A stretch of 64,000 bases of DNA from Steroidobacteraceae bacterium. Its GTDB lineage: Bacteria; Pseudomonadota; Gammaproteobacteria; Steroidobacterales; Steroidobacteraceae. Below are positions 34,927 to 42,527 of the stretch, piece after piece. The notes under the pieces are model-generated. The model did not search any database and had not been told where the DNA came from. It saw only the letters and a list, made by a program, of their open reading frames with translations. The first letter of the stretch is position 1. Each line of letters starts with the position of its first letter. The translations under genes and the position numbers were made by a program. Location: positions 1,816 through 65,815 of the forward strand of contig DATMMK010000029.1 in the NCBI GenBank assembly GCA_035569755.1, read 5' to 3'.

Positions 34927-35721
34927 CTACCGCGCGCGCAACTCGCGCAGCCAGGCGGCCGGATCCTCGCCGCGCTCGAGCACCTCGACGAGCGCCGAGC
35001 CGACCACGACACCGTCCACGTGGCCGCGCAGCCGCTCGACCTGCGCGCGCGTGCGGATGCCGAACCCGGCGCACACGGGGAGCGCGGCGCCCGCGCGCAC
35101 CCGCTCGAGGTAGGCGATCACCTCGTCCGGCACGGCGACGTTGCGCCCGGTGGTGCCGGTCATGGTGACCGCGTAGACGAACCCCTGGCTGCCGGCACAC
35201 AGGGCCGCGAGGCGCTCGGGCTCGGTGACCGGGGTGACCATCTGCACCAGCGCGATCCCGCAGGCGCCGAGCGCCGCCTGAAGCTCGCTCGCCTCATCGA
35301 GCGGCAGGTCCGGCACGATGAAGCCCGCGATTCCGGCGCGCGCGGCGCTGTCGGCGAGCGCGCTCACCCCGAAGGCGAGCAGCGGGTTGAGATAGCTCAT
35401 GAGGAGGAGCGGCGTGCGCACGGCCTCGAGCCGCGCCACCTCGCTGAGGATCCAGCGCAGCGTCACTCCCTGGGAGAGCGCCGCGAGGCTCGCGCGCTGG
35501 ATGGTGACGCCGTCGGCCATGGGGTCCGTGAACGGCACGCCGATCTCGACCACGTCGGCGGCCGCGGCGACCGCCTCGAGGTGGGCGCCAAACTGCTCGC
35601 GCCGGGGGAAGCCCGCCGTCAGGTAGGCGACGAGTGCGGGCCCGCCGCGCGCTGCAGCGGCGCGGATGGCGCTCGTGATGCGCTGGTGCGGAATCTCCTG
35701 CGGGCGCTGCCGCGAGCTCAT
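34927..35721 (-). CDS. trpA: tryptophan synthase alpha chain
   Basis: LVAYLTAGFP, EIGVPFTDPMADGVTIQ, GFGIRT. The ATG overlaps the trpB stop (ATGA at 35718-35721). Confidence 0.93.
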   Translation of the reverse strand: MSSRQRPQEIPHQRITSAIRAAAARGGPALVAYLTAGFPRREQFGAHLEAVAAAADVVEIGVPFTDPMADGVTIQRASLAALSQGVTLRWILSEVARLEAVRTPLLLMSYLNPLLAFGVSALADSAARAGIAGFIVPDLPLDEASELQAALGACGIALVQMVTPVTEPERLAALCAGSQGFVYAVTMTGTTGRNVAVPDEVIAYLERVRAGAALPVCAGFGIRTRAQVERLRGHVDGVVVGSALVEVLERGEDPAAWLRELRAR

Positions 35722-36959
35722 GGCGCCTGGCTCGCGAGCAGCGTCTGCTGCAGCGTCGGCATGTCCTTGTCGCCGCGCCCGGAGAGGCACACGAGCACGG
35801 TCTCTCCCGGGTGCTCGCGTGCCCAGCGCTCCGCCGCGGCGAGCGCGTGCGCGCTCTCGATCGCCGGCAGGATCCCCTCGCACTCGCTCAACGCGCGCAC
35901 CCCCGCGAGCGATTCCTCATCACTCGCCGTCTCGTAACGCACTCTGCCGACCGCGGCGAGCAGGGCATGCTCGGGCCCCACGCCCGGGTAGTCGAGCCCC
36001 GCGGAGACCGAGTGCGTCTCCTGGATCTGGCCATCCGCATCCTGCAGCAGCATCGAGTAGGTGCCGTGCAGCACCCCGGGCCGCCCGAAAGCGACGGTCG
36101 CGGCATTCTCGCCGAGCCCGGCGCCACGCCCGCCGGCCTCGATGCCGATGAGGTCGACGGTGGCATCGGCGATGAACGCATGGAAGGCGCCGATCGAGTT
36201 CGAGCCGCCGCCGACGCAGGCGATGAGCGCATCGGGCAGCCGCCCGGTCGAGCCGAGCATCTGTGCGCGCGCCTCGCGCCCGATCACTGCCTGGAGCTCG
36301 CGCACCAGGTAGGGATAGGGGTGGGGCCCGACGACCGAGCCGATGAGGTAATACGTTCCGAGGGGATCCGACACCCAGTCGCGCAGCGATTCATCGATCG
36401 CGGCGCGCAGCGTCCGGTCACCGCTCGTGACCGGCACGACGGTGGCGCCGAGGAGCCGCATGCGCCCGACGTTCGGGGCCTGACGCTCCATGTCGATCGC
36501 GCCCATGTACACCGTGCACGGGAGCCCGAGCCGTGCACAGGCAGCGGCGCTCGCCACGCCGTGCTGCCCCGCGCCGGTCTCGGCGACGATGCGCCGGGCA
36601 CCGAGGCGGCGCGCGAGCAGCGCCTGACCGATGGCGTTGTTGATCTTGTGGGCGCCGGTGTGGGCGAGGTCCTCGCGCTTGAGCCACACCTGCGCACCCC
36701 AGCGCGCGGAAAGGCGCGCCGCGTGGGTGAGCGCCGTGGGCCGCCCGGCCCAGGAGGTGAGCTGGCCGGCGAGCTCCGCCTGGAACTCGTGGGTCTGCAG
36801 GTGTTCGCGCACGCCGCGCGCGAGCCGCTCGAGCGGCGGAATGAGCGTCTCGGGGACGTAACGTCCGCCGAAGGGGCCGAAACGGCCGCGCTCATCGGGG
36901 AGCTTGCCGGCGATCAGCGCCGCGAGCATTTTCTTCGCTTCAGACGGTGCGACACTCAT
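35718..36959 (-). CDS. trpB: tryptophan synthase beta chain
   Basis: GRFGPFGGRYVPETL, LKREDLAHTGAHKINNA, ETGAGQHGVA, GGGSNSIG. Confidence 0.97.
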   Translation of the reverse strand: MSVAPSEAKKMLAALIAGKLPDERGRFGPFGGRYVPETLIPPLERLARGVREHLQTHEFQAELAGQLTSWAGRPTALTHAARLSARWGAQVWLKREDLAHTGAHKINNAIGQALLARRLGARRIVAETGAGQHGVASAAACARLGLPCTVYMGAIDMERQAPNVGRMRLLGATVVPVTSGDRTLRAAIDESLRDWVSDPLGTYYLIGSVVGPHPYPYLVRELQAVIGREARAQMLGSTGRLPDALIACVGGGSNSIGAFHAFIADATVDLIGIEAGGRGAGLGENAATVAFGRPGVLHGTYSMLLQDADGQIQETHSVSAGLDYPGVGPEHALLAAVGRVRYETASDEESLAGVRALSECEGILPAIESAHALAAAERWAREHPGETVLVCLSGRGDKDMPTLQQTLLASQAP

Positions 36960-36968
36960 GAGGGATCC

Positions 36969-37571
36969 TCAACCGTGGTCAATGGCGGCCGCGGCGCGCG
37001 CCGCGGCGACGAACTGTGTGATCTTGAGCGGGCTCTTCACGCCGGGGCGCGCCTCGACGCCGCTCGAGACGTCGACCCCGAAGGGGCGAACGGTGGCGAT
37101 CGCCTGAGCGACGTTGGCGCAGTCGAGCCCCCCGGCGAGCACGAGCTGCGTGCTGCGGGAAAGACGCCGCGCCGCGCTCCAGTCGCTCGCCGTGCCGCTG
37201 CCGCTCGCGGGCCCCTCGAAGAGGATCCGCGGCGGGAGCGCCGCCGCGCGCTCTGCGGCGCGCACCACGGGCAGCAGCTCGAGCGATGGCGGCAGGCGCA
37301 GCGCCCCCAGATCGGCCTCATCCGTCTGCAGCACGTCCGGCCGGAAGACGCGCAGCAGCTCATCGAGCGCGGGCTGCCCGGGGTGGCGGGTCACGGCGAT
37401 GCAGCGCACCCGGCCGCGCGCCGGGCGCGCCAGCTGCGCGGCCGCTTCCGGGGTGAGCTGCCGCGGCGATGCGGCGAACACGAAGCCGATCGCGTCCGCT
37501 CCCGCCTCGAGCGCGGTCGCGATCGCATCCGGGGTCGTCATGCCGCAGATCTTGATCCACATCGCAGCCAC
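36969..37571 (-). CDS. trpF: phosphoribosylanthranilate isomerase
   Basis: MWIKICGMTTPDA...GADAIGFVF, LAGGL, GVDVSSGVE. An alternative ATG lies at 37562. Confidence 0.88.
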   Translation of the reverse strand: MAAMWIKICGMTTPDAIATALEAGADAIGFVFAASPRQLTPEAAAQLARPARGRVRCIAVTRHPGQPALDELLRVFRPDVLQTDEADLGALRLPPSLELLPVVRAAERAAALPPRILFEGPASGSGTASDWSAARRLSRSTQLVLAGGLDCANVAQAIATVRPFGVDVSSGVEARPGVKSPLKITQFVAAARAAAAIDHG

Positions 37572-37584
37572 GCCCCCCTGAAGC

Positions 37585-38415
37585 TCAGTGCGCCGCGCGC
37601 GCGGCGCGCCCGGCGCGCAGCAGTGCCGCGGCGAGCCCTTGCGGGTCCGTGCCGCGCATGAGCGCGCTGCCGACCAGCGCGAGAGAGTAGCCGGCGGCCG
37701 CGACGCTGCGTGCGCCCTCGGGCGTGGCGACGCCGCTCTCGGCCACGCGCGGTACCCCGGCCGGCAGCAGCGGGGCGAGCTCGAGGAGGCGCGCCGGCAC
37801 CACCTCGAGGGTGGCGAGGTCGCGGCAGTTCACCCCGGCGAGCAGCGCCGTCGCACCGCGCCGCCCCTCGACGAGCTCATGCATCAGCGCGATGTCATGC
37901 GCGTCGAAGGCCTCGAGCAGCACGAACAGTCCGAGTGCCAGCGCGCAGTCGATGAGCGCGCGCGTGTCCTCCCTCGGCAGCATGCGCAGGATCACCAGCA
38001 CCCCGCCGGCGCCCGCCGCGCGTGCCTCGAACACCTGATAGGGATCGACGAGGAAGTCCTTGCGCATCGCGGGCACGCCGAGCGGCGCGAGGACCTGCGC
38101 CGCGGCGCCGAGGTGCGCGAGCGAGCCGTCGAAGCGGCTCGGCTCCGTGAGCACCGAGACCGCGGCGGCGCCGGCGGCCGCATAGGATGTCACCCGTGCC
38201 GCGAGGTCTTCGTTCGCGGGCCTGAGCTCGCCCGCCGCCGGCGAGCGCAGCTTCATCTCCGCGATGAGATCGAAGCCGCTCGCATCGAGCTTGAGCGGCG
38301 GCGCCGCGGGCGTGGCGCGCGCGGCCGACTCGAGCCCCGCGAGCGAGCGGCATCTGGCCGCGGCACGCACCCGCTCGCGGCTGCCGGCGGCCATCTGCTC
38401 GAGGAACGCGCTCAA
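37585..38415 (-). CDS. trpC: indole-3-glycerol-phosphate synthase
   Basis: IAEMKLRSPAAG, VSVLTEPSRFDGS, MRKDFLVDPYQ, GVNCRDL, VAESGV. The TTG at 38415 overlaps the trpD stop (TTGA). An alternative ATG lies at 38394. The upstream part of the track ORF is inside trpD. Confidence 0.85.
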   Translation of the reverse strand: MSAFLEQMAAGSRERVRAAARCRSLAGLESAARATPAAPPLKLDASGFDLIAEMKLRSPAAGELRPANEDLAARVTSYAAAGAAAVSVLTEPSRFDGSLAHLGAAAQVLAPLGVPAMRKDFLVDPYQVFEARAAGAGGVLVILRMLPREDTRALIDCALALGLFVLLEAFDAHDIALMHELVEGRRGATALLAGVNCRDLATLEVVPARLLELAPLLPAGVPRVAESGVATPEGARSVAAAGYSLALVGSALMRGTDPQGLAAALLRAGRAARAAH

Positions 38416-39458
38416 GCGGGACTTCCGCGGCCGGGGCCGGCCGGCGCCCGCGCGCGCAGTGCCGCGAGCAGCTTTGCCGCCGCCCCGTCCTCGAGCGCCG
38501 CCCGGGCACGCGCGATGCCGGCGCGCGGCTCGGCCGCCACTCCCGCCACCTCGAGCGCGAGCGCCGTGCCGAGCAGCAGGCAGTCGCGATGCGCCCCGTG
38601 GTCCGTCCCGGTGAGCACCGCCTCGAGCGCGCGTGCGTTGTAGGCGGCATCGCCGCCGGCGAGCGCTGCGGCCGCACATTCGGCGAGCCCGTAGTCGGCC
38701 GGCTCGCGCACGGCGACGGTTACCCGCTGCGGGCGCACGTCGAACACCGTGAAGGCGCCGACCGGCGTCGGCTCGTCCCAGCCGCCCGCGCCGTGCACGA
38801 CGAAGGCACGCTCGATCGGTAGTCCCGCGAGCGTATCAGCCATGAGGCGCGCGACCTCGACACTGTAGGCGCCGATCAGGTGCAGCGGCGGCTGCGCCGG
38901 GTTCACGAGCGGACCTAAGATGTTGAACACGGTGCGCACGCCGAGCGCGGCGCGGATCGGCGCGACCCTTGAGGTCGCCGGGTGATAGTGCGGCGCGAAG
39001 AGATAGGTGAACCCGGTGGCGGCGAGGCAGGCGCCTGCGGATACGCCGTCGGCCGGGATCGCCACACCGAGCGCCTCGAGCACATCGGCGCTGCCGCAGC
39101 GGCTCGAGACCGAGCGGTTGCCGTGCTTCACGACCGGCACCCCGCAGGCGGCGGTGAGGAGCGCGGTACCGGTGGAGATGTTGAGGCTCCCCGAGGCATC
39201 GCCGCCGGTTCCGACGATGTCGATGGCGCGCATATCTGCCGGGATGTCGGGACGGCGCGCCAGGCGGCGCATGGTGAGCGCGAAGCCGCGCACCTCATCG
39301 GCCACCACGCCCTTGGTCGAGAGCGCCGCCAGCAGCGCCCCCGCCATGGCGGGGGCGAGCTCGGCGCTCGTCAGGTGCGCGAGCAGCTCCTCGGCCTGCG
39401 CCTGGCTCAGGTCGCGCCGCTCGGACAGCTGCTGCAGCAGCTCACGCGGCGCCGGCAT
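38412..39458 (-). CDS. trpD: anthranilate phosphoribosyltransferase
   Basis: [43 protein letters not shown], and further TrpD motifs. Confidence 0.93.
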
Positions 39459-40056
39459 CGGCGGCTCCCCGCTGGCCCGCGGAGTAGGTGAGGAAATTCT
39501 CGAGCAGCTTGGGTCCGGCGGGCGTCAGGATGCTCTCGGGGTGGAACTGCACTCCCTCAACGGTGAGCGTGCGGTGGCGCACCGCCATGATCTCGCCCTC
39601 ATCGGTGCGCGCCGTCACGGCGAGTACCTCAGGGAGCGACTCGGGAGCGGCGATCAGCGAGTGGTAGCGTCCGACCTCGCAGGGCTGGGGCAGGCCTGCG
39701 AACAGGGCGCTGCCGTCGTGGCGCACCAGCGAGGTCTTGCCGTGCATCAGGCGCGCGGCGCGCACCACCTTGCCGCCGAACACCTCGACGATCGACTGAT
39801 GCCCGAGGCATACGCCGAGCACCGGAATGGAGCCCGCGAAGGCGCGGATCATGTCCATGGAGACCCCGGCGTCGTACGGGGTGCCGGGACCGGGCGAGAT
39901 GCACAGGTGCGTGGGCGCGAGCGCGAGCGCCTCGGACGGGGTCAGGGCGTCGTTGCGGTAGACGCGCACCTCGGCGCCGAGCACCAGGAACGCCTGCACC
40001 AGGTTGTAGGTGAAGGAGTCGTAGTTGTCGATGAGCAGGAGGCGCGGTTGCCTCAC
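39442..40056 (-). CDS. trpG: anthranilate synthase component II (glutamine amidotransferase)
   Basis: [22 protein letters not shown] (catalytic Cys), QFHPES. The GTG start overlaps the trpE stop (GTGA). Confidence 0.93.
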
Positions 40057-41438
40057 AGCCCCTCCTCGGCGAGCTCGAGCGCGCGCACCATGGCGCCGCT
40101 CTTGGCGAGCACCTCCTCGTGCTCGGTGCCCGGGACGCTGTCGGCGACGATGCCGGCGCCCGCCTGGTAGCTGTACTCATCGCCCGTGAACACCAGCGTG
40201 CGGATGGTGATCGCGTGGTCCATGTCGCCGCGAGCGCCGAAGTAACCGACCGTACCGCCGTAGAGGCCGCGGCGTACCGGCTCGAGCTCGTCGATGATCT
40301 GCATGGCCCGCACCTTCGGTGCGCCGACGAGCGTGCCGGCCGGGAACGCCGCCGCGAACAGGTCGAAGGCATCGCGCCCCTGACTGAGCTCGCCGTGCAC
40401 CCCGCTCACCATGTGCATGACGTGGCTGTAGCGCTCGATGGCGCGATAGGGATCGACCGTGACACTGCCGGCGCAGGCGACCCTGCCGAGATCGTTGCGG
40501 GCGAGGTCGACGAGCATCACGTGCTCGGCGTTCTCCTTGGGATCGGCGCGCAGCTCGCTCTCGCGCGCCAGGTCAACCGCCGCATCCGCGCCGCGCGGGC
40601 GGGTGCCGGCGATCGGGCGCAGCTGTGCCCGGCGGCCGGAGAGCTTCACCAGCGCCTCGGGAGATGAGCCCACCACCGCCACGTCGCCGAGCGCGCAGTA
40701 GTACATATAAGGAGACGGGTTGATGAGGCGCAGGGCGCGGTACGCCTGGAACGGGTCGAGCGCGTGGCGGCCGGAGAAGCGGCTCGCCAGCACCATCTGG
40801 TAGACATCGCCCGCGGCGATGTACTCCTGTGTGCGCCTGACGCCCGCCATGTAGGCCTCGCGTGTCCAGGCCGCGGCCGGCGGCGAGTAGCGCCCCGCGC
40901 GGCGGCCGTTCGGCAGCGCCCCGCGCAGCGCCTGGATCACCTCGCGGCGCAGCGCGCGCCGCTCGGCCTCATCCCCGGCATGGGCGAGCGCGATGCCACG
41001 CGTCAGGTGATCGAACACCAGCACCGAGCGCGGCGCAACGTAGTGGAGCACCGGCACGCCGTGATCGGTGCGCGCGCGCGCCGGCAGCCGCTCGAAGTAG
41101 CGCACCACGTCGTAGGCCGCGTAGCCCACCAGGCCGCCGGCGAGCGGCACGCCCGGGAACTCGGGGCGCGGCTGCGGCGCGGCGGCGAGCGCGGCGCGCA
41201 GCCCCGTGAGCAGCTCCGCGCCGTCGGCGGGCGGCGCACGGCGCTCGGACCCTATCGTGAGCCCCGCCTCGTCGAGCCGTACCTCGAGCCCGTCGCCGAA
41301 GCCGATGAAGGAGTAGCGGCCGAGCCGCTCGCCGCCTTCGACGCTCTCGAGCAGGAAGCGCGGCGCGAAGGCGGCGAGCTTCATGAACGCCGAGACCGGC
41401 GTGTCGAGGTCACCGGTGATGTCGAAGGCCGTCTGCAA
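40053..41438 (-). CDS. trpE: anthranilate synthase component I
   Basis: [20 protein letters not shown], and the C-terminal chorismate-binding domain ([21 protein letters not shown]). I place the start at TTG 41438, with GGAG 9 nt upstream. The track ATG at 41492 lies in the loop of the attenuator terminator. Confidence 0.88.
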
Positions 41439-41467
41439 AGATCGAGGCTCCAAAAAAGACGCAAGAC

Positions 41468-41506
41468 AACAAAAAACCCATCCCGGGGTCATCCGGAGAT
41501 GGGTTT
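41468..41506 (-). terminator. trp attenuator intrinsic terminator
   Basis: On the minus strand: AAACCCATCTCCGG-atgacc-CCGGGATGGGTTT, followed by TTT G (six consecutive T in total). Located between the leader ORF and trpE. Confidence 0.75.
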
Positions 41507-41563
41507 CTGGTGCCGTTAAATCGCTTTGAGTCGCGGGAAAAAGCTAACCGTCAGCCCACTCCG

Positions 41564-41611
41564 TCATGAGGGGCGCCACCACCAGGAAGTGCTGACGGGC
41601 CGCTGCGACAT
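41564..41611 (-). CDS. trpL: trp operon leader peptide, 15 aa: MSQRPVSTSWWWRPS
   Basis: Hand-translated: atg tcg cag cgg ccc gtc agc act tcc tgg tgg tgg cgc ccc tca tga. Three consecutive Trp codons lie at 41576-41584. The C-terminal WW(W)R-x-S-stop layout mirrors E. coli TrpL (...GWWRTS). Confidence 0.75.
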   Translation of the reverse strand: MSQRPVSTSWWWRPS

Positions 41612-41621
41612 GTTGCGAACG

Positions 41622-41650
41622 AGTATCCCTGCGGGCAAGCAGGGCGTCAA
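41622..41650 (-). promoter_or_regulatory. candidate sigma70 promoter for trpL-trpE
   Basis: TTGACG (41650-41645), 17 nt, GATACT (41627-41622). The leader ATG is only 10 nt downstream of the -10, implying a near-leaderless transcript. Alternatively the promoter lies further upstream and AGGGA acts as a distant SD. Confidence 0.35.
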
Positions 41651-41658
41651 GCACCGGC

Positions 41659-42021
41659 CTACTTGCGGCACACCGCCTCGATGTTGTTGCCGTCCGGGTC
41701 GAGGAGGAACGCGGCGTAGTAATTCGGGGCGTAGTCCGCGCGGATGCCGGGCGCGCCGTTGTCGCGCCCGCGCGCCTTGAGCCCCTCGCGGTGGAAGGCA
41801 TCCACCGCGCTGCGCGTGCTCGCCTCGAAGGCGACGTGCACCAGCGAATGCGCGAGCTGCGCATCGCCCGCGAGCCAGAGCGCCGGTGCCCCTTCCGGGC
41901 CGAAGCCGGCGGTCGACTCGTCGGCGAATGCCAGCACGAGCCCCAGGGGCGCGAGCGCCGCGGTGTAGAAGCGCACGCTCGCGTCCAGATCCTTCACTTT
42001 GAGGCCGATGTGGTTGTACAC
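41659..42021 (-). CDS. VOC/glyoxalase-family protein
   Basis: GTG at 42021 preceded by GGGAGGG. VYNHIGLKVKDLDASVRFY...HVAFEA...YYAAFLLDPDGNNIE is a typical VOC fold pattern. Confidence 0.8.
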   Translation of the reverse strand: MYNHIGLKVKDLDASVRFYTAALAPLGLVLAFADESTAGFGPEGAPALWLAGDAQLAHSLVHVAFEASTRSAVDAFHREGLKARGRDNGAPGIRADYAPNYYAAFLLDPDGNNIEAVCRK

Positions 42022-42113
42022 GGGTCTGCCCTCCCTGCTGGGGGGCCGATGATGAACTCCGGCGCGCCCTTTCGCTAGAATGCGCGCCCGGCGTAACCTA
42101 GAAAGCAAACCCC

Positions 42114-42527
42114 GTGAGCTTCAAAGAGCTGCTCGAGAGCTGGCGCGAGACGGCGGCCGCGCCGCGGAGCGCCAGCACCTTCGCCGTGAATCTGCCGCTC
42201 GACGAGGCGGCACAGCTCGCCGCTCTCGCCGAGATGTTCCCGGGACGGGCTCCGGAGCAGCTGATCACCGAGCTGCTCGGCGCGGCGCTCAGGGAGCTCG
42301 CCGCCGCGATGCCCTACGTCGCCGGCAAGCGCGTGATCTCGACCGACGAGCAGGGCGACCCCATCTACGAGGACGTCGGCCCCACGCCGCGCTTCATGGC
42401 ACTCACCCGCACACACCGCCGCGACCTCGAGGCGCAGCGCAAGGAAGCCGGCCGCGCGCGGCCGCCCGCGGGCGCGAAGGCCGCGAGCCGCGCGCGCAAG
42501 TCCACCCGGCGCCGCCCGCGAGGCTGA
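42114..42527 (+). CDS. hypothetical protein with a basic C-terminal tail
   Basis: GTG-initiated ORF with coding-like composition, ending 4 nt before yajQ. No family recognised. Confidence 0.45.
   Translation: MSFKELLESWRETAAAPRSASTFAVNLPLDEAAQLAALAEMFPGRAPEQLITELLGAALRELAAAMPYVAGKRVISTDEQGDPIYEDVGPTPRFMALTRTHRRDLEAQRKEAGRARPPAGAKAASRARKSTRRRPRG

What the first reader, a model, noticed from the sequence alone, without database searches (positions are those of the whole stretch)
41468..41650. Unannotated 15-codon Trp-rich leader peptide plus intrinsic terminator: a classical ribosome-mediated attenuator in front of trpE
**Leader ORF.** On the minus strand, between the VOC gene and trpE, there is a short ORF: atg tcg cag cgg ccc gtc agc act tcc TGG TGG TGG cgc ccc tca tga (41611..41564). 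It has three consecutive Trp codons, and its tail W-W-W-R-P-S-stop mirrors E. coli TrpL (...G-W-W-R-T-S-stop).

**Antiterminator.** One nt after its stop codon lies GGAGTGGG (41562-41555). This can pair with CCCAtCTCC in the 5' arm of a strong hairpin.

**Terminator.** The hairpin is AAACCCATCTCCGG / CCGGGATGGGTTT at 41506..41474, followed by a T-run.

**Interpretation.** This gives the mutually exclusive 2:3 versus 3:4 pairings expected for trp attenuation. The element is below the ORF-track length cut-off and would be missed by gene callers.
Basis: partly seen in the sequence, partly recalled or inferred. Interest (0 to 1): 0.62.

Follow-up and report, generated by a model that had tools for sequence, protein, structure and literature searches.

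The report
Tryptophan leader-peptide attenuator before trpE
A tiny gene with three tryptophan codons, followed by competing RNA hairpins and a transcription stop signal, sits in front of the tryptophan-synthesis operon of an uncultured Steroidobacteraceae soil bacterium; it is a well-conserved but expected example of the classical "stalled ribosome" switch known from E. coli.

Summary
The minus strand carries a 15-codon ORF (MSQRPVSTSWWWRPS, 41611..41564). GGAGTGGG begins one nt after its stop codon. A -22.8 kcal/mol hairpin plus U-tract lies at 41508..41471. All of this precedes trpEGDCFB(A).

The interpretation, a ribosome-mediated trp attenuator, is strongly supported:
- All 51 members of one TrpE clade carry the same layout: promoter, Trp-run ORF, region 2 and terminator. 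The clade holds Steroidobacterales-like Gammaproteobacteria, five Acidimicrobiia and one Eisenbacteria genome. None of 30 other TrpE loci carries it.
- The best complement of the terminator's 5' arm lies 9-13 nt after the last Trp codon in 46 of 49 sequences. Cognate pairs bind better than swapped pairs (p = 0.0004).
- In constrained folds the antiterminator forms in 43 of 48 sequences when a ribosome is stalled on Trp. It cannot form once a ribosome covers region 2, which is a consequence of the geometry and not an independent result.

- The start codon lies 6-11 nt after the -10 box and has no Shine-Dalgarno sequence, so the leader ORF is probably leaderless.
- Rfam's Trp_leader model does not detect the element.
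- Leader and operon appear to have crossed phyla together.

This is a known mechanism in an uncatalogued sequence family. Regulation itself is untested.

The parts
41622..41650 (-). Sigma-70-type promoter: -35 TTGACG (41650-41645), 17-nt spacer, -10 GATACT (41627-41622)
   Evidence: It is the only promoter-like site in 41000-42200, against 0.0 expected. TTGAC[GC]-17/18-[GC]ATACT is conserved at the same place in about 43 of 50 relatives.
41564..41611 (-). Leader ORF trpL: 15 codons plus TGA, MSQRPVSTSWWWRPS*. There is no Shine-Dalgarno sequence, and the ATG lies 10 nt after the -10 box.
   Evidence: An in-frame Trp-run ORF is present in 49 of 50 aligned relatives.
41576..41584 (-). Three consecutive Trp codons (TGG TGG TGG), the sensing site where the ribosome would stall when charged tRNA-Trp is scarce
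   Evidence: These are invariant or nearly invariant columns in alignment A1.
41586..41598 (-). Region 1 (window version): CCGTCAGCACTTC. It pairs with region 2 and its 3' flank (41562..41548), making the anti-antiterminator.
   Evidence: It appears in the MFE folds. In the ribosome-free nascent RNA of the window, the expected number of region 2 pairs to ORF positions upstream of the Trp run is 5.1. It lies inside the footprint of a ribosome stalled on the Trp codons.
41548..41563 (-). Region 2: core CGGAGTGGG (41563..41555) plus CTGACGG (41554..41548). It pairs either with region 1 or with region 3.
   Evidence: The 2:3 duplex has 9 bp with one bulged U, at -15.9 kcal/mol. 90.2% of cells are paired across 50 sequences, against 36-61% when the partner is slid. 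The cognate-versus-swapped test gave p = 0.0004.
41493..41508 (-). Region 3: 5' arm of the terminator (AGAAACCCATCTCCGG), shared between antiterminator and terminator
41468..41486 (-). Region 4: 3' arm of the terminator (CCGGGATGGGTTT, 41486..41474) followed by the U-tract TTTTTTGTT
   Evidence: The hairpin folds at -22.8 kcal/mol, z = -4.1. 88.4% of cells are paired, with 20 double-change cells, reached by 0 of 500 shuffles.
41436..41451 (-). trpE translation initiation region: GGAG (41451-41448), 9-nt spacer, TTG start (41438-41436). It lies outside the terminator.
   Evidence: The tblastn matches of relatives begin at residue 1 of the TTG-started protein. ATG or TTG starts sit at the aligned position in relatives.
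35718..41438 (-). Regulated operon: trpE (40053-41438), trpG (39442-40056), trpD (38412-39458), presumed trpC (about 37585-38679), trpF (36969-37571), trpB (35718-36959).
   Evidence: NCBIfam hits. The presumed trpC frame was not confirmed here.

Best explanation
This is a ribosome-mediated (leader-peptide) transcription attenuator that sets read-through into trpEGDCFB(A) according to the supply of charged tRNA-Trp.

Proposed sequence of events (inferred):
1. Transcription starts a few nucleotides after the -10 box GATACT.
2. A ribosome initiates on the ATG at or within about 3 nt of the 5' end, without a Shine-Dalgarno sequence, and translates MSQRPVSTSWWWRPS.

When Trp-tRNA is scarce:
- The ribosome stalls with one of the three TGG codons (41584..41576) in its A site.
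- Its footprint covers region 1 (41598..41586, and the codons after the Trp run) but leaves CGGAGTGGG (41563..41555) free.
- That segment pairs with CCCA(U)CUCCG (41503..41494) as soon as it is made.
- The terminator's 5' arm is then occupied, so RNA polymerase reads into trpE.

When Trp-tRNA is plentiful:
- The ribosome runs to the TGA, which ends 1 nt before region 2, and physically covers region 2.
- Region 3 therefore pairs with region 4, and the -22.8 kcal/mol hairpin plus U-tract terminates transcription.

When no ribosome is present, region 1 holds region 2 and termination also occurs.

What is shown: the sequence features, their conservation, their pairing potential and their spacing.

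What is inferred: the transcription start, translation of the ORF, and the response to tryptophan.
For: Anatomy in the window:
- The ORF, the Trp run, region 2 one nt after the stop, the terminator and the promoter are all present.

Context:
- The element sits directly upstream of a trp operon.
- It travels with trpE and not with the upstream gene. The VOC gene is shared only with the closest relative L001, whereas trpG follows trpE in all 50 relatives.

Conservation:
- The Trp-run ORF, GGAGTGGG-like region 2 and terminator occur upstream of trpE in every member of one TrpE clade. That is 51 of 51, counting L039, whose longer linker kept it out of the statistics.
- The same layout occurs in none of the 30 other TrpE loci retrieved.

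Terminator:
- 88.4% of cells are paired.
- There are 20 double-change cells, a count reached by 0 of 500 shuffles.

Antiterminator:
- 90.2% of cells are paired, against 36-61% with slid partners.
- The best complement of the terminator's 5' arm in the whole leader lies 9-13 nt after the last Trp codon in 46 of 49 sequences.
- Cognate region 2/region 3 duplexes are 1.6 kcal/mol better than permuted ones (p = 0.0004, with one representative for each of 24 distinct region 3 sequences).
- Coordinated changes are visible. Examples are CCCACCUC with GAGGUGG in Acidimicrobiia, and CCCAUCCCC with GGGGAGGG in L041.

Region 1:
- In nascent RNA without region 3, region 2 is predicted to pair with ORF codons in 42 of 48 sequences.

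Geometry:
- With a 28-nt ribosome mask on the second Trp codon, 2:3 forms in 43 of 48 nascent RNAs.
- With no ribosome it forms in 20 of 48.
- At equilibrium the terminator wins in 45 of 48, so the switch is kinetic, as in E. coli.

Precedent:
- Leaderless trpL ORFs with WWW are documented in Sinorhizobium meliloti (PMC7298713) and Streptomyces lividans (PMC8079986).
Against: - There are no expression data.
- Fixed-column covariation for the antiterminator is not above the shuffle control, because the columns are nearly invariant. The simple 1:2 helix is no better than a slide of +1. Support for these two helices therefore rests on register-free and thermodynamic tests, and those do not correct fully for phylogenetic relatedness.
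- The result of 0 of 48 antiterminators with a ribosome over region 2 follows by construction from the mask.
- In the window itself, a ribosome stalled on the third Trp codon would already touch region 2. The expected 2:3 pairs fall to 2.7, against 9.0 for the second codon.
- Rfam Trp_leader gives no hit, even at E <= 10.
Confidence: 0.88

Rival explanations
1. The hairpin is only an ordinary intrinsic terminator or insulator ending the upstream VOC-family gene. On this view the WWW ORF and the GGAGTGGG complement are chance features of a GC-rich spacer.
For: The hairpin lies about 150 nt downstream of the VOC stop on the same strand. Long ORFs are common by chance at 70% G+C.
Against: - The VOC gene is upstream only in the window and in L001. 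The whole promoter-ORF-region 2-terminator module is nevertheless kept in front of trpE in about 50 genomes with other neighbours.
- A conserved promoter lies between the VOC gene and the ORF.
- The Trp codons are invariant.
- The region 2 position is fixed relative to the Trp run in 46 of 49 sequences.
Confidence: 0.02
2. The leader ORF acts mainly at the level of translation or mRNA stability, for example through ribosome loading or re-initiation for trpE, or through Rho-dependent polarity. On this view it does not work through the intrinsic terminator switch.
For: Short leader ORFs have been proposed to boost translation of downstream genes by re-initiation (PMC4833913). No direct termination data exist here.
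Against: - The leader stop codon is 126 nt upstream of the trpE start, far outside the 10-13 nt re-initiation distances discussed in that paper.
- The trpE Shine-Dalgarno sequence (41451-41448) lies outside every predicted helix.
- A strong hairpin with a U-tract, and a complement to its 5' arm, are the conserved features.
Confidence: 0.04
3. The element is an attenuator and has a second job. The terminated leader RNA of about 140 nt, and/or the 15-aa peptide, would act in trans, as rnTrpL and peTrpL do in Sinorhizobium meliloti.
For: - Regions 2, 3 and 4 are unusually invariant, with 10 invariant and 22 nearly invariant columns across 50 sequences from three phyla.
- There is precedent for a leaderless trpL transcript with trans functions (PMC7298713, PMC6614838).
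Against: - The three-way constraint on region 3, which must pair with both region 2 and region 4, already explains slow change.
- The peptide outside the WWW-R-x-x tail is not conserved.
- All seven trp genes sit in one operon here, so there is no second trp operon needing co-regulation in trans as in Sinorhizobium.
- No targets were sought.
Confidence: 0.08

Closest known systems
Escherichia coli trp operon attenuator (trpL; Yanofsky model; Rfam Trp_leader RF00513)
   Same: - A short ORF with tandem Trp codons near its end.
- A stop codon just before region 2.
- Four regions giving 1:2, 2:3 and 3:4 pairings.
- An intrinsic terminator before trpE.
- A kinetic rather than equilibrium switch.
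- Relatives of the window share up to 20 identical nucleotides (GGTGGTGGCGCACTTCCTGA) with an annotated E. coli 'Trp leader region'.
   Different: - It has three Trp codons where, from my own knowledge of the canonical K-12 sequence, E. coli has two.
- It has no Shine-Dalgarno sequence, and the start codon lies 6-11 nt after the -10 box, so it is probably leaderless.
- Regions 2-4 are unrelated in sequence to those of E. coli.
- The Rfam covariance model gives no hit, even at E <= 10 in the window and E <= 5 in 15 relatives.
- trpC and trpF are separate genes, and no TrpR-type operator was seen.
Sinorhizobium meliloti trpL / rnTrpL attenuator upstream of trpE(G)
   Same: The transcript begins at the ATG of trpL, so the mRNA is leaderless (PMC7298713). 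The remaining shared features are from my own knowledge of that system and were not read in the cited papers: a leader peptide with WWW near its C-terminus, and ribosome-dependent transcription attenuation of trpE.
   Different: - In S. meliloti only trpE(G) is attenuated, and the released RNA and peptide have trans functions (PMC6614838, PMC7298713). Here a whole-pathway operon follows and no trans function is indicated.
- No sequence similarity between the two was tested.
Actinobacterial leaderless trpL attenuators (Streptomyces lividans trpL1 MFAHSTRNWWWTAHPAAH; Corynebacterium glutamicum trpL)
   Same: - A leaderless leader ORF with WWW, followed by hairpins and a U-rich stretch before trpE (PMC8079986).
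- The window's own family includes five Acidimicrobiia (Actinomycetota) members with the same layout.
   Different: - The Streptomyces element precedes a monocistronic trpE.
- Its sequence relationship to the family described here was not tested.

Membership tests
Ribosome-mediated (leader-peptide) trp transcription attenuator (mechanistic class) | A short ORF upstream of the first biosynthetic gene, with tandem codons for the regulating amino acid near its 3' end | tested here: met
   MSQRPVSTSWWWRPS. WW or WWW ORFs occur in 49 of 50 aligned relatives.
Ribosome-mediated (leader-peptide) trp transcription attenuator (mechanistic class) | An intrinsic terminator (GC-rich hairpin plus U-tract) between the leader ORF and the structural gene | tested here: met
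   The hairpin folds at -22.8 kcal/mol, z = -4.1. 88.4% of cells are paired, with covariation reached by 0 of 500 shuffles.
Ribosome-mediated (leader-peptide) trp transcription attenuator (mechanistic class) | An antiterminator helix that uses the terminator's 5' arm and is mutually exclusive with the terminator | tested here: met
   - The window helix has 9 bp at -15.9 kcal/mol.
- 90.2% of cells are paired, against 36-61% when slid.
- The position is fixed in 46 of 49 sequences.
- Cognate beats permuted partners, p = 0.0004.
- Fixed-column covariation alone is not significant.
Ribosome-mediated (leader-peptide) trp transcription attenuator (mechanistic class) | A region 1 within the ORF that sequesters region 2 when no ribosome is stalled | tested here: inconclusive
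   Folding predicts it in 42 of 48 sequences and in the window. However, the register differs between sequences, and a single fixed helix is no better than a slid control.
Ribosome-mediated (leader-peptide) trp transcription attenuator (mechanistic class) | Spacing such that a ribosome stalled on the regulatory codons frees region 2, while a ribosome at the stop codon or beyond covers it | tested here: met
   - Region 2 starts 9-13 nt after the last Trp codon.
- The stop codon lies 1-4 nt before region 2 in 26 sequences. The ORF reads through region 2 in 22 sequences.
- 2:3 forms in 43 of 48 sequences with a stalled-ribosome mask.
Ribosome-mediated (leader-peptide) trp transcription attenuator (mechanistic class) | The leader is translated, and read-through responds to charged tRNA-Trp | not testable with these tools
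The genome is a metagenome-assembled genome (85% complete, 94 contigs).
Rfam Trp_leader (RF00513) | A match to the family covariance model at or above its gathering score | tested here: not met
   There is no hit at E <= 10 in window 41000-42100, and none at E <= 5 in 15 relatives.
Leaderless leader-ORF attenuators (S. meliloti trpL, Streptomyces/Corynebacterium trpL type) | The transcript 5' end coincides with, or lies within a few nt of, the leader start codon, and there is no Shine-Dalgarno sequence | tested here: inconclusive
   The start codon lies 6-11 nt after the predicted -10 box in about 43 of 50 sequences, and 10 nt after it in the window. The intervening CGTTCGCAAC has no purine-rich motif. 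The transcription start itself is not mapped.

The most novel reading that the evidence does not exclude
The near-invariance of regions 2-4 across three phyla reflects a second function. On this reading the prematurely terminated, leaderless trpL RNA of about 140 nt, or its WWW peptide, acts in trans as rnTrpL and peTrpL do in Sinorhizobium. The whole cassette of promoter, leaderless leader and operon would then be a horizontally mobile, self-regulating trp module that works in Gammaproteobacteria, Actinomycetota and Eisenbacteria alike.
Probability: 0.08. Interest if true: 0.55.

Novelty: new member of a known kind. Interest (0 to 1): 0.3.

Why it matters
- **Annotation.** The element gives a correct start for trpE (TTG 41438, not the ATG in the terminator loop). 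It adds an unannotated 15-codon gene and a regulatory RNA to Steroidobacterales genomes.
- **A gap in Rfam.** The Trp_leader model misses a well-conserved trp attenuator family found in at least about 50 species. Alignment A1 and model R1 could seed a new family.
- **Evolution.** The leader is inherited strictly with one TrpE clade that spans three phyla. This is a tidy example of a cis-regulatory switch moving together with its operon, and of a three-way pairing constraint freezing an RNA sequence.
- **Mechanism.** Nothing new is implied. Earlier notes of this scan show that WWW leaders are common in many phyla.

Tried and rejected
- **Rfam scans.** Permissive thresholds on the window and on 15 relatives gave only chance hits and no leader family.
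- **Fixed-column covariation.** It was not above the shuffle control for the antiterminator, and not above the slid control for a single 1:2 helix. I replaced these with register-free tests.
- **Covariance model R1 on 300 Gammaproteobacteria.** The sample holds about one genome per family.
  - True hits came only from the window's own family and one other family of the same order (L083, L084).
  - The five weak hits (E between 1e-4 and 1e-3) have no Trp-run leader, and I rejected them.
- **Other attenuators in the same genome.** I scanned for runs of His, Phe, Leu, Thr, Cys and other residues followed by a terminator.
  - Only the trp leader stood out.
  - A 'GWW' candidate on contig C18 lies inside an aldehyde-dehydrogenase coding region, and I rejected it.
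- **Terminator of the upstream gene.** I rejected this reading because the upstream gene differs in 49 of 50 relatives.
- **Literature.** A search for Steroidobacter plus attenuator found no paper.

Full report
**1. The observation**

- The ORF 41611..41564 reads ATG TCG CAG CGG CCC GTC AGC ACT TCC TGG TGG TGG CGC CCC TCA TGA, which is MSQRPVSTSWWWRPS*.
- One nucleotide after the stop lies GGAGTGGG (41562..41555).
- The hairpin AAACCCATCTCCGG / CCGGGATGGGTTT (41506..41474) is followed by T6 and more T-rich sequence.
- The hairpin folds at -22.8 kcal/mol, against -11.8 +/- 2.7 for shuffles (z = -4.1, 0 of 200 as good).
- TGGTGGTGG occurs three times in the 64-kb window, against 0.24 expected.
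- A sigma-70-like promoter, TTGACG-17-GATACT (41650..41622), is the only such site in the 1.2 kb scanned, where none is expected.

The downstream genes on the same strand are trpE, trpG, trpD, trpF and trpB (NCBIfam). A presumed trpC lies between trpD and trpF. The gene upstream is a small VOC/glyoxalase-like protein.

**2. Whose genome, and is the element conserved**

TrpE relatives retrieved from one genome per species are mostly Steroidobacteraceae and unclassified Gammaproteobacteria metagenome-assembled genomes, at 63-94% identity. They also include one Candidatus Eisenbacteria genome and five Acidimicrobiia. The window's own assembly is 2.7 Mb in 94 contigs and 85% complete.

The 260 nt upstream of trpE in L001-L050 show the same modules in the same order:
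- a TTGAC[GC]-17/18-[GC]ATACT promoter;
- an ATG 6-11 nt after the -10 box;
- an ORF of 14-36 codons with WW or WWW;
- a GGAGTGGG-like segment;
- a variable linker;
- the hairpin (A)ACCCATCTCCGG...CCGGGATGGGTTTTTT.

The upstream VOC gene is shared only with the closest relative, L001, whereas trpG follows trpE in all 50. The module therefore belongs to trpE and not to the upstream gene.

**3. The three helices**

On the MAFFT alignment A1 (50 sequences):
- *Terminator (3:4).* It is paired in 88.4% of cells. It has 20 double-change cells, which none of 500 shuffles reach.
- *Antiterminator (2:3).* It is paired in 90.2% of cells, against 36-61% when the 3' partner is slid by 1-3 columns. Its columns are almost invariant, so fixed-column covariation is not above the shuffle control.
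- *A single fixed 1:2 helix.* It fares no better than a slide of +1.

I therefore used register-free tests.
- *Position of region 2.* For each sequence I took the terminator's 5' arm from its own fold and asked where in the whole leader its best complement lies. In 46 of 49 sequences it starts 9-13 nt after the last Trp codon. In the other three (L023, L026, L038) the best duplex falls elsewhere or is extended, involving the Trp run itself in L023 and L038.
- *Cognate versus swapped partners.* Cognate region 2/region 3 duplexes are more stable than permuted pairs. The means are -15.45 and -13.85 kcal/mol, with p = 0.0004 using one representative for each of 24 distinct region 3 sequences.
- *Coordinated changes.* These are visible by eye.
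  - Acidimicrobiia have region 3 CCCACCUC with both region 2 and region 4 as GAGGUGG.
  - L041 has CCCAUCCCC with GGGGAGGG.
  - L040 uses GGGGAUGG.
  - L004 and L012-L016 lose the bulge.
- *Region 1.* In nascent RNA ending before region 3, region 2 is predicted to pair with ORF codons in 42 of 48 sequences.
  - In 36 sequences the partner is the two or three codons after the Trp run (CGC-ACU-CC / GGAGUG).
  - In 9 sequences, including the window, the partner is the codons just before the run.
  - In the window this is 41598..41586 with 41562..41548, 13 bp.

**4. Geometry and mechanism**

Region 2 begins 11 nt after the last Trp codon and 1 nt after the stop in the window. I masked 28 nt, from 15 nt upstream to 12 nt downstream of the first A-site base.
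- In nascent RNA lacking region 4, the antiterminator forms (at least 5 expected pairs) in 43 of 48 sequences when the ribosome sits on the second Trp codon.
- It forms in 40 of 48 on the third Trp codon, and in 20 of 48 with no ribosome.
- It forms in none when the ribosome is at the stop or over region 2. That last result follows from the mask and is not independent evidence.
- In full-length RNA at equilibrium the terminator wins in 45 of 48 sequences. The choice must therefore be kinetic, as in E. coli.

Two sub-types exist.
- In 26 sequences, including the window, the stop codon lies 1-4 nt before region 2.
- In 22 sequences the ORF reads through region 2 and stops 17-42 nt later.

Both sub-types put an unstalled ribosome on region 2. 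These steps are inferred from sequence. Nothing here measures transcription or translation.

**5. Leaderless translation**

There is no purine-rich motif before the ATG in the window, where the intervening sequence is CGTTCGCAAC. The distance from the -10 box to the start codon is 6-11 nt in about 43 of 50 sequences. With a usual start about 7 nt after the -10 box, this means a 5' UTR of 0-4 nt. Leaderless trpL is documented in two systems:
- Sinorhizobium meliloti, where the 5' end of rnTrpL is the ATG of trpL (PMC7298713);
- Streptomyces lividans, where trpL1 (MFAHSTRNWWWTAHPAAH) is 'transcribed leaderless' (PMC8079986).

I rate the leaderless reading at about 0.6. It needs a mapped transcription start.

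**6. Comparison with known families**

Mechanistically this is the Yanofsky-type attenuator. It is not a member of Rfam Trp_leader (RF00513) by that family's own criterion. No hit appears at E <= 10 in the window or at E <= 5 in 15 relatives.

A 60-nt query from L008 found a single place in 28 Gb of E. coli genomes. It is a 20-nt exact match lying in an annotated 'Trp leader region' directly upstream of trpE. E = 5 is not significant on its own, but the location is telling. Regions 2-4 are unrelated to those of E. coli.

A covariance model built from A1 was run on 300 Gammaproteobacteria, about one genome per family. It found true copies only in the window's family and one other family of the same order. 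The weak hits elsewhere lack a Trp-run leader.

**7. Evolutionary context**

Other gammaproteobacterial families have TrpE at most 52% identical to the window's. The Eisenbacteria protein is 65% identical and the Acidimicrobiia proteins are 56-63% identical.

In a quick maximum-likelihood tree, a long branch with SH-aLRT 100 unites the 45 Steroidobacterales-like sequences, 5 Acidimicrobiia and 1 Eisenbacteria sequence. It excludes a clade, also with support 100, of 19 other gammaproteobacterial families.

Every member of the first clade carries the leader. None of the 30 other loci retrieved (L051-L080) does. Leader and operon have therefore moved together between phyla. The direction of transfer is open.

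**8. Novelty and interest**

The literature search found no description for Steroidobacter. Earlier notes of this scan list many WWW leaders before trpE in other phyla, several of them leaderless. This element is therefore a new member of a known kind.

It is useful for annotation and as a seed for an RNA family. It is mildly interesting for its cross-phylum inheritance and for the frozen sequence of a triply constrained helix. It is not surprising to a specialist. I give it an interest of 0.3.

**9. Limits**

- The statistics are not fully corrected for phylogeny.
- The promoter and transcription start are predicted only.
- The tree was built with the quick method.

Noticed in passing
window 41436-41492 (minus strand): The longest-ORF start of trpE (ATG 41492) is the ATGACC loop of the terminator. 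The real start is TTG 41438, with GGAG 9 nt upstream. Relatives align from residue 1 of the TTG-started protein, and several have ATG at that position.
   Followed up: partly
L001-L050 versus L091-L110 (TrpE proteins); window 40053-41438: TrpE of the Steroidobacterales-like genomes forms a long-branched clade (SH-aLRT 100) with Acidimicrobiia and one Eisenbacteria genome. It is separate from 19 other gammaproteobacterial families (at most 52% identity). The leader is present in all 51 clade members and in none of 30 others. This suggests inter-phylum transfer of operon plus attenuator.
   Followed up: partly
L111 197-222 (E. coli isolate EC-TO143, NZ_LS999560.1 2662435-2662460): This isolate's annotated Trp leader region reads AAAGGTGGTGGCGCACTTCCTGA. 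As I remember the K-12 sequence (AAAGGTTGGTGGCGC...), one T is missing. That would shift the trpL frame and remove the in-frame Trp codons and the stop. It was the only one of 5426 E. coli genomes to reach the 20-nt match. The K-12 comparison rests on memory, not on a tool result.
   Followed up: no
L004, L005-L007, L010-L016, L018, L020, L033, L035, L038-L043, L046, L048 (leader ORFs): In 22 of 48 relatives the leader ORF does not stop before region 2. It reads through region 2 (for example ...WWWRTPQPEWAAGC*), so a translating ribosome itself melts the antiterminator partner. The window belongs to the other sub-type, where the stop lies 1 nt before region 2.
   Followed up: partly
L002, L003, L004, L006-L008, L010, L050 (leaders); window 41609-41602 with about 41544-41530: Many leaders begin MSQQ (AUGUCGCAGCAGC). 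This 5' segment is predicted to pair with a conserved GCUGCU downstream of region 2, forming a long outer stem that encloses the Trp codons and the 1:2 hairpin. It may be a pause or closing stem. In the window the equivalent pairing is weaker.
   Followed up: no
window 41627-41644 (minus strand): The promoter spacer contains an inverted repeat, CCCTGC-N6-GCAGGG. It is not conserved in relatives apart from a partial match in L001, so it is probably not an operator.
   Followed up: no
whole genome G000 (genome.fa): A scan for other leader-peptide attenuators found nothing convincing apart from trpL. It looked for runs of His, Phe, Leu, Thr, Cys and other residues in short ORFs followed by a hairpin plus T-run. 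The assembly is 85% complete, so absence is not proven.
   Followed up: partly
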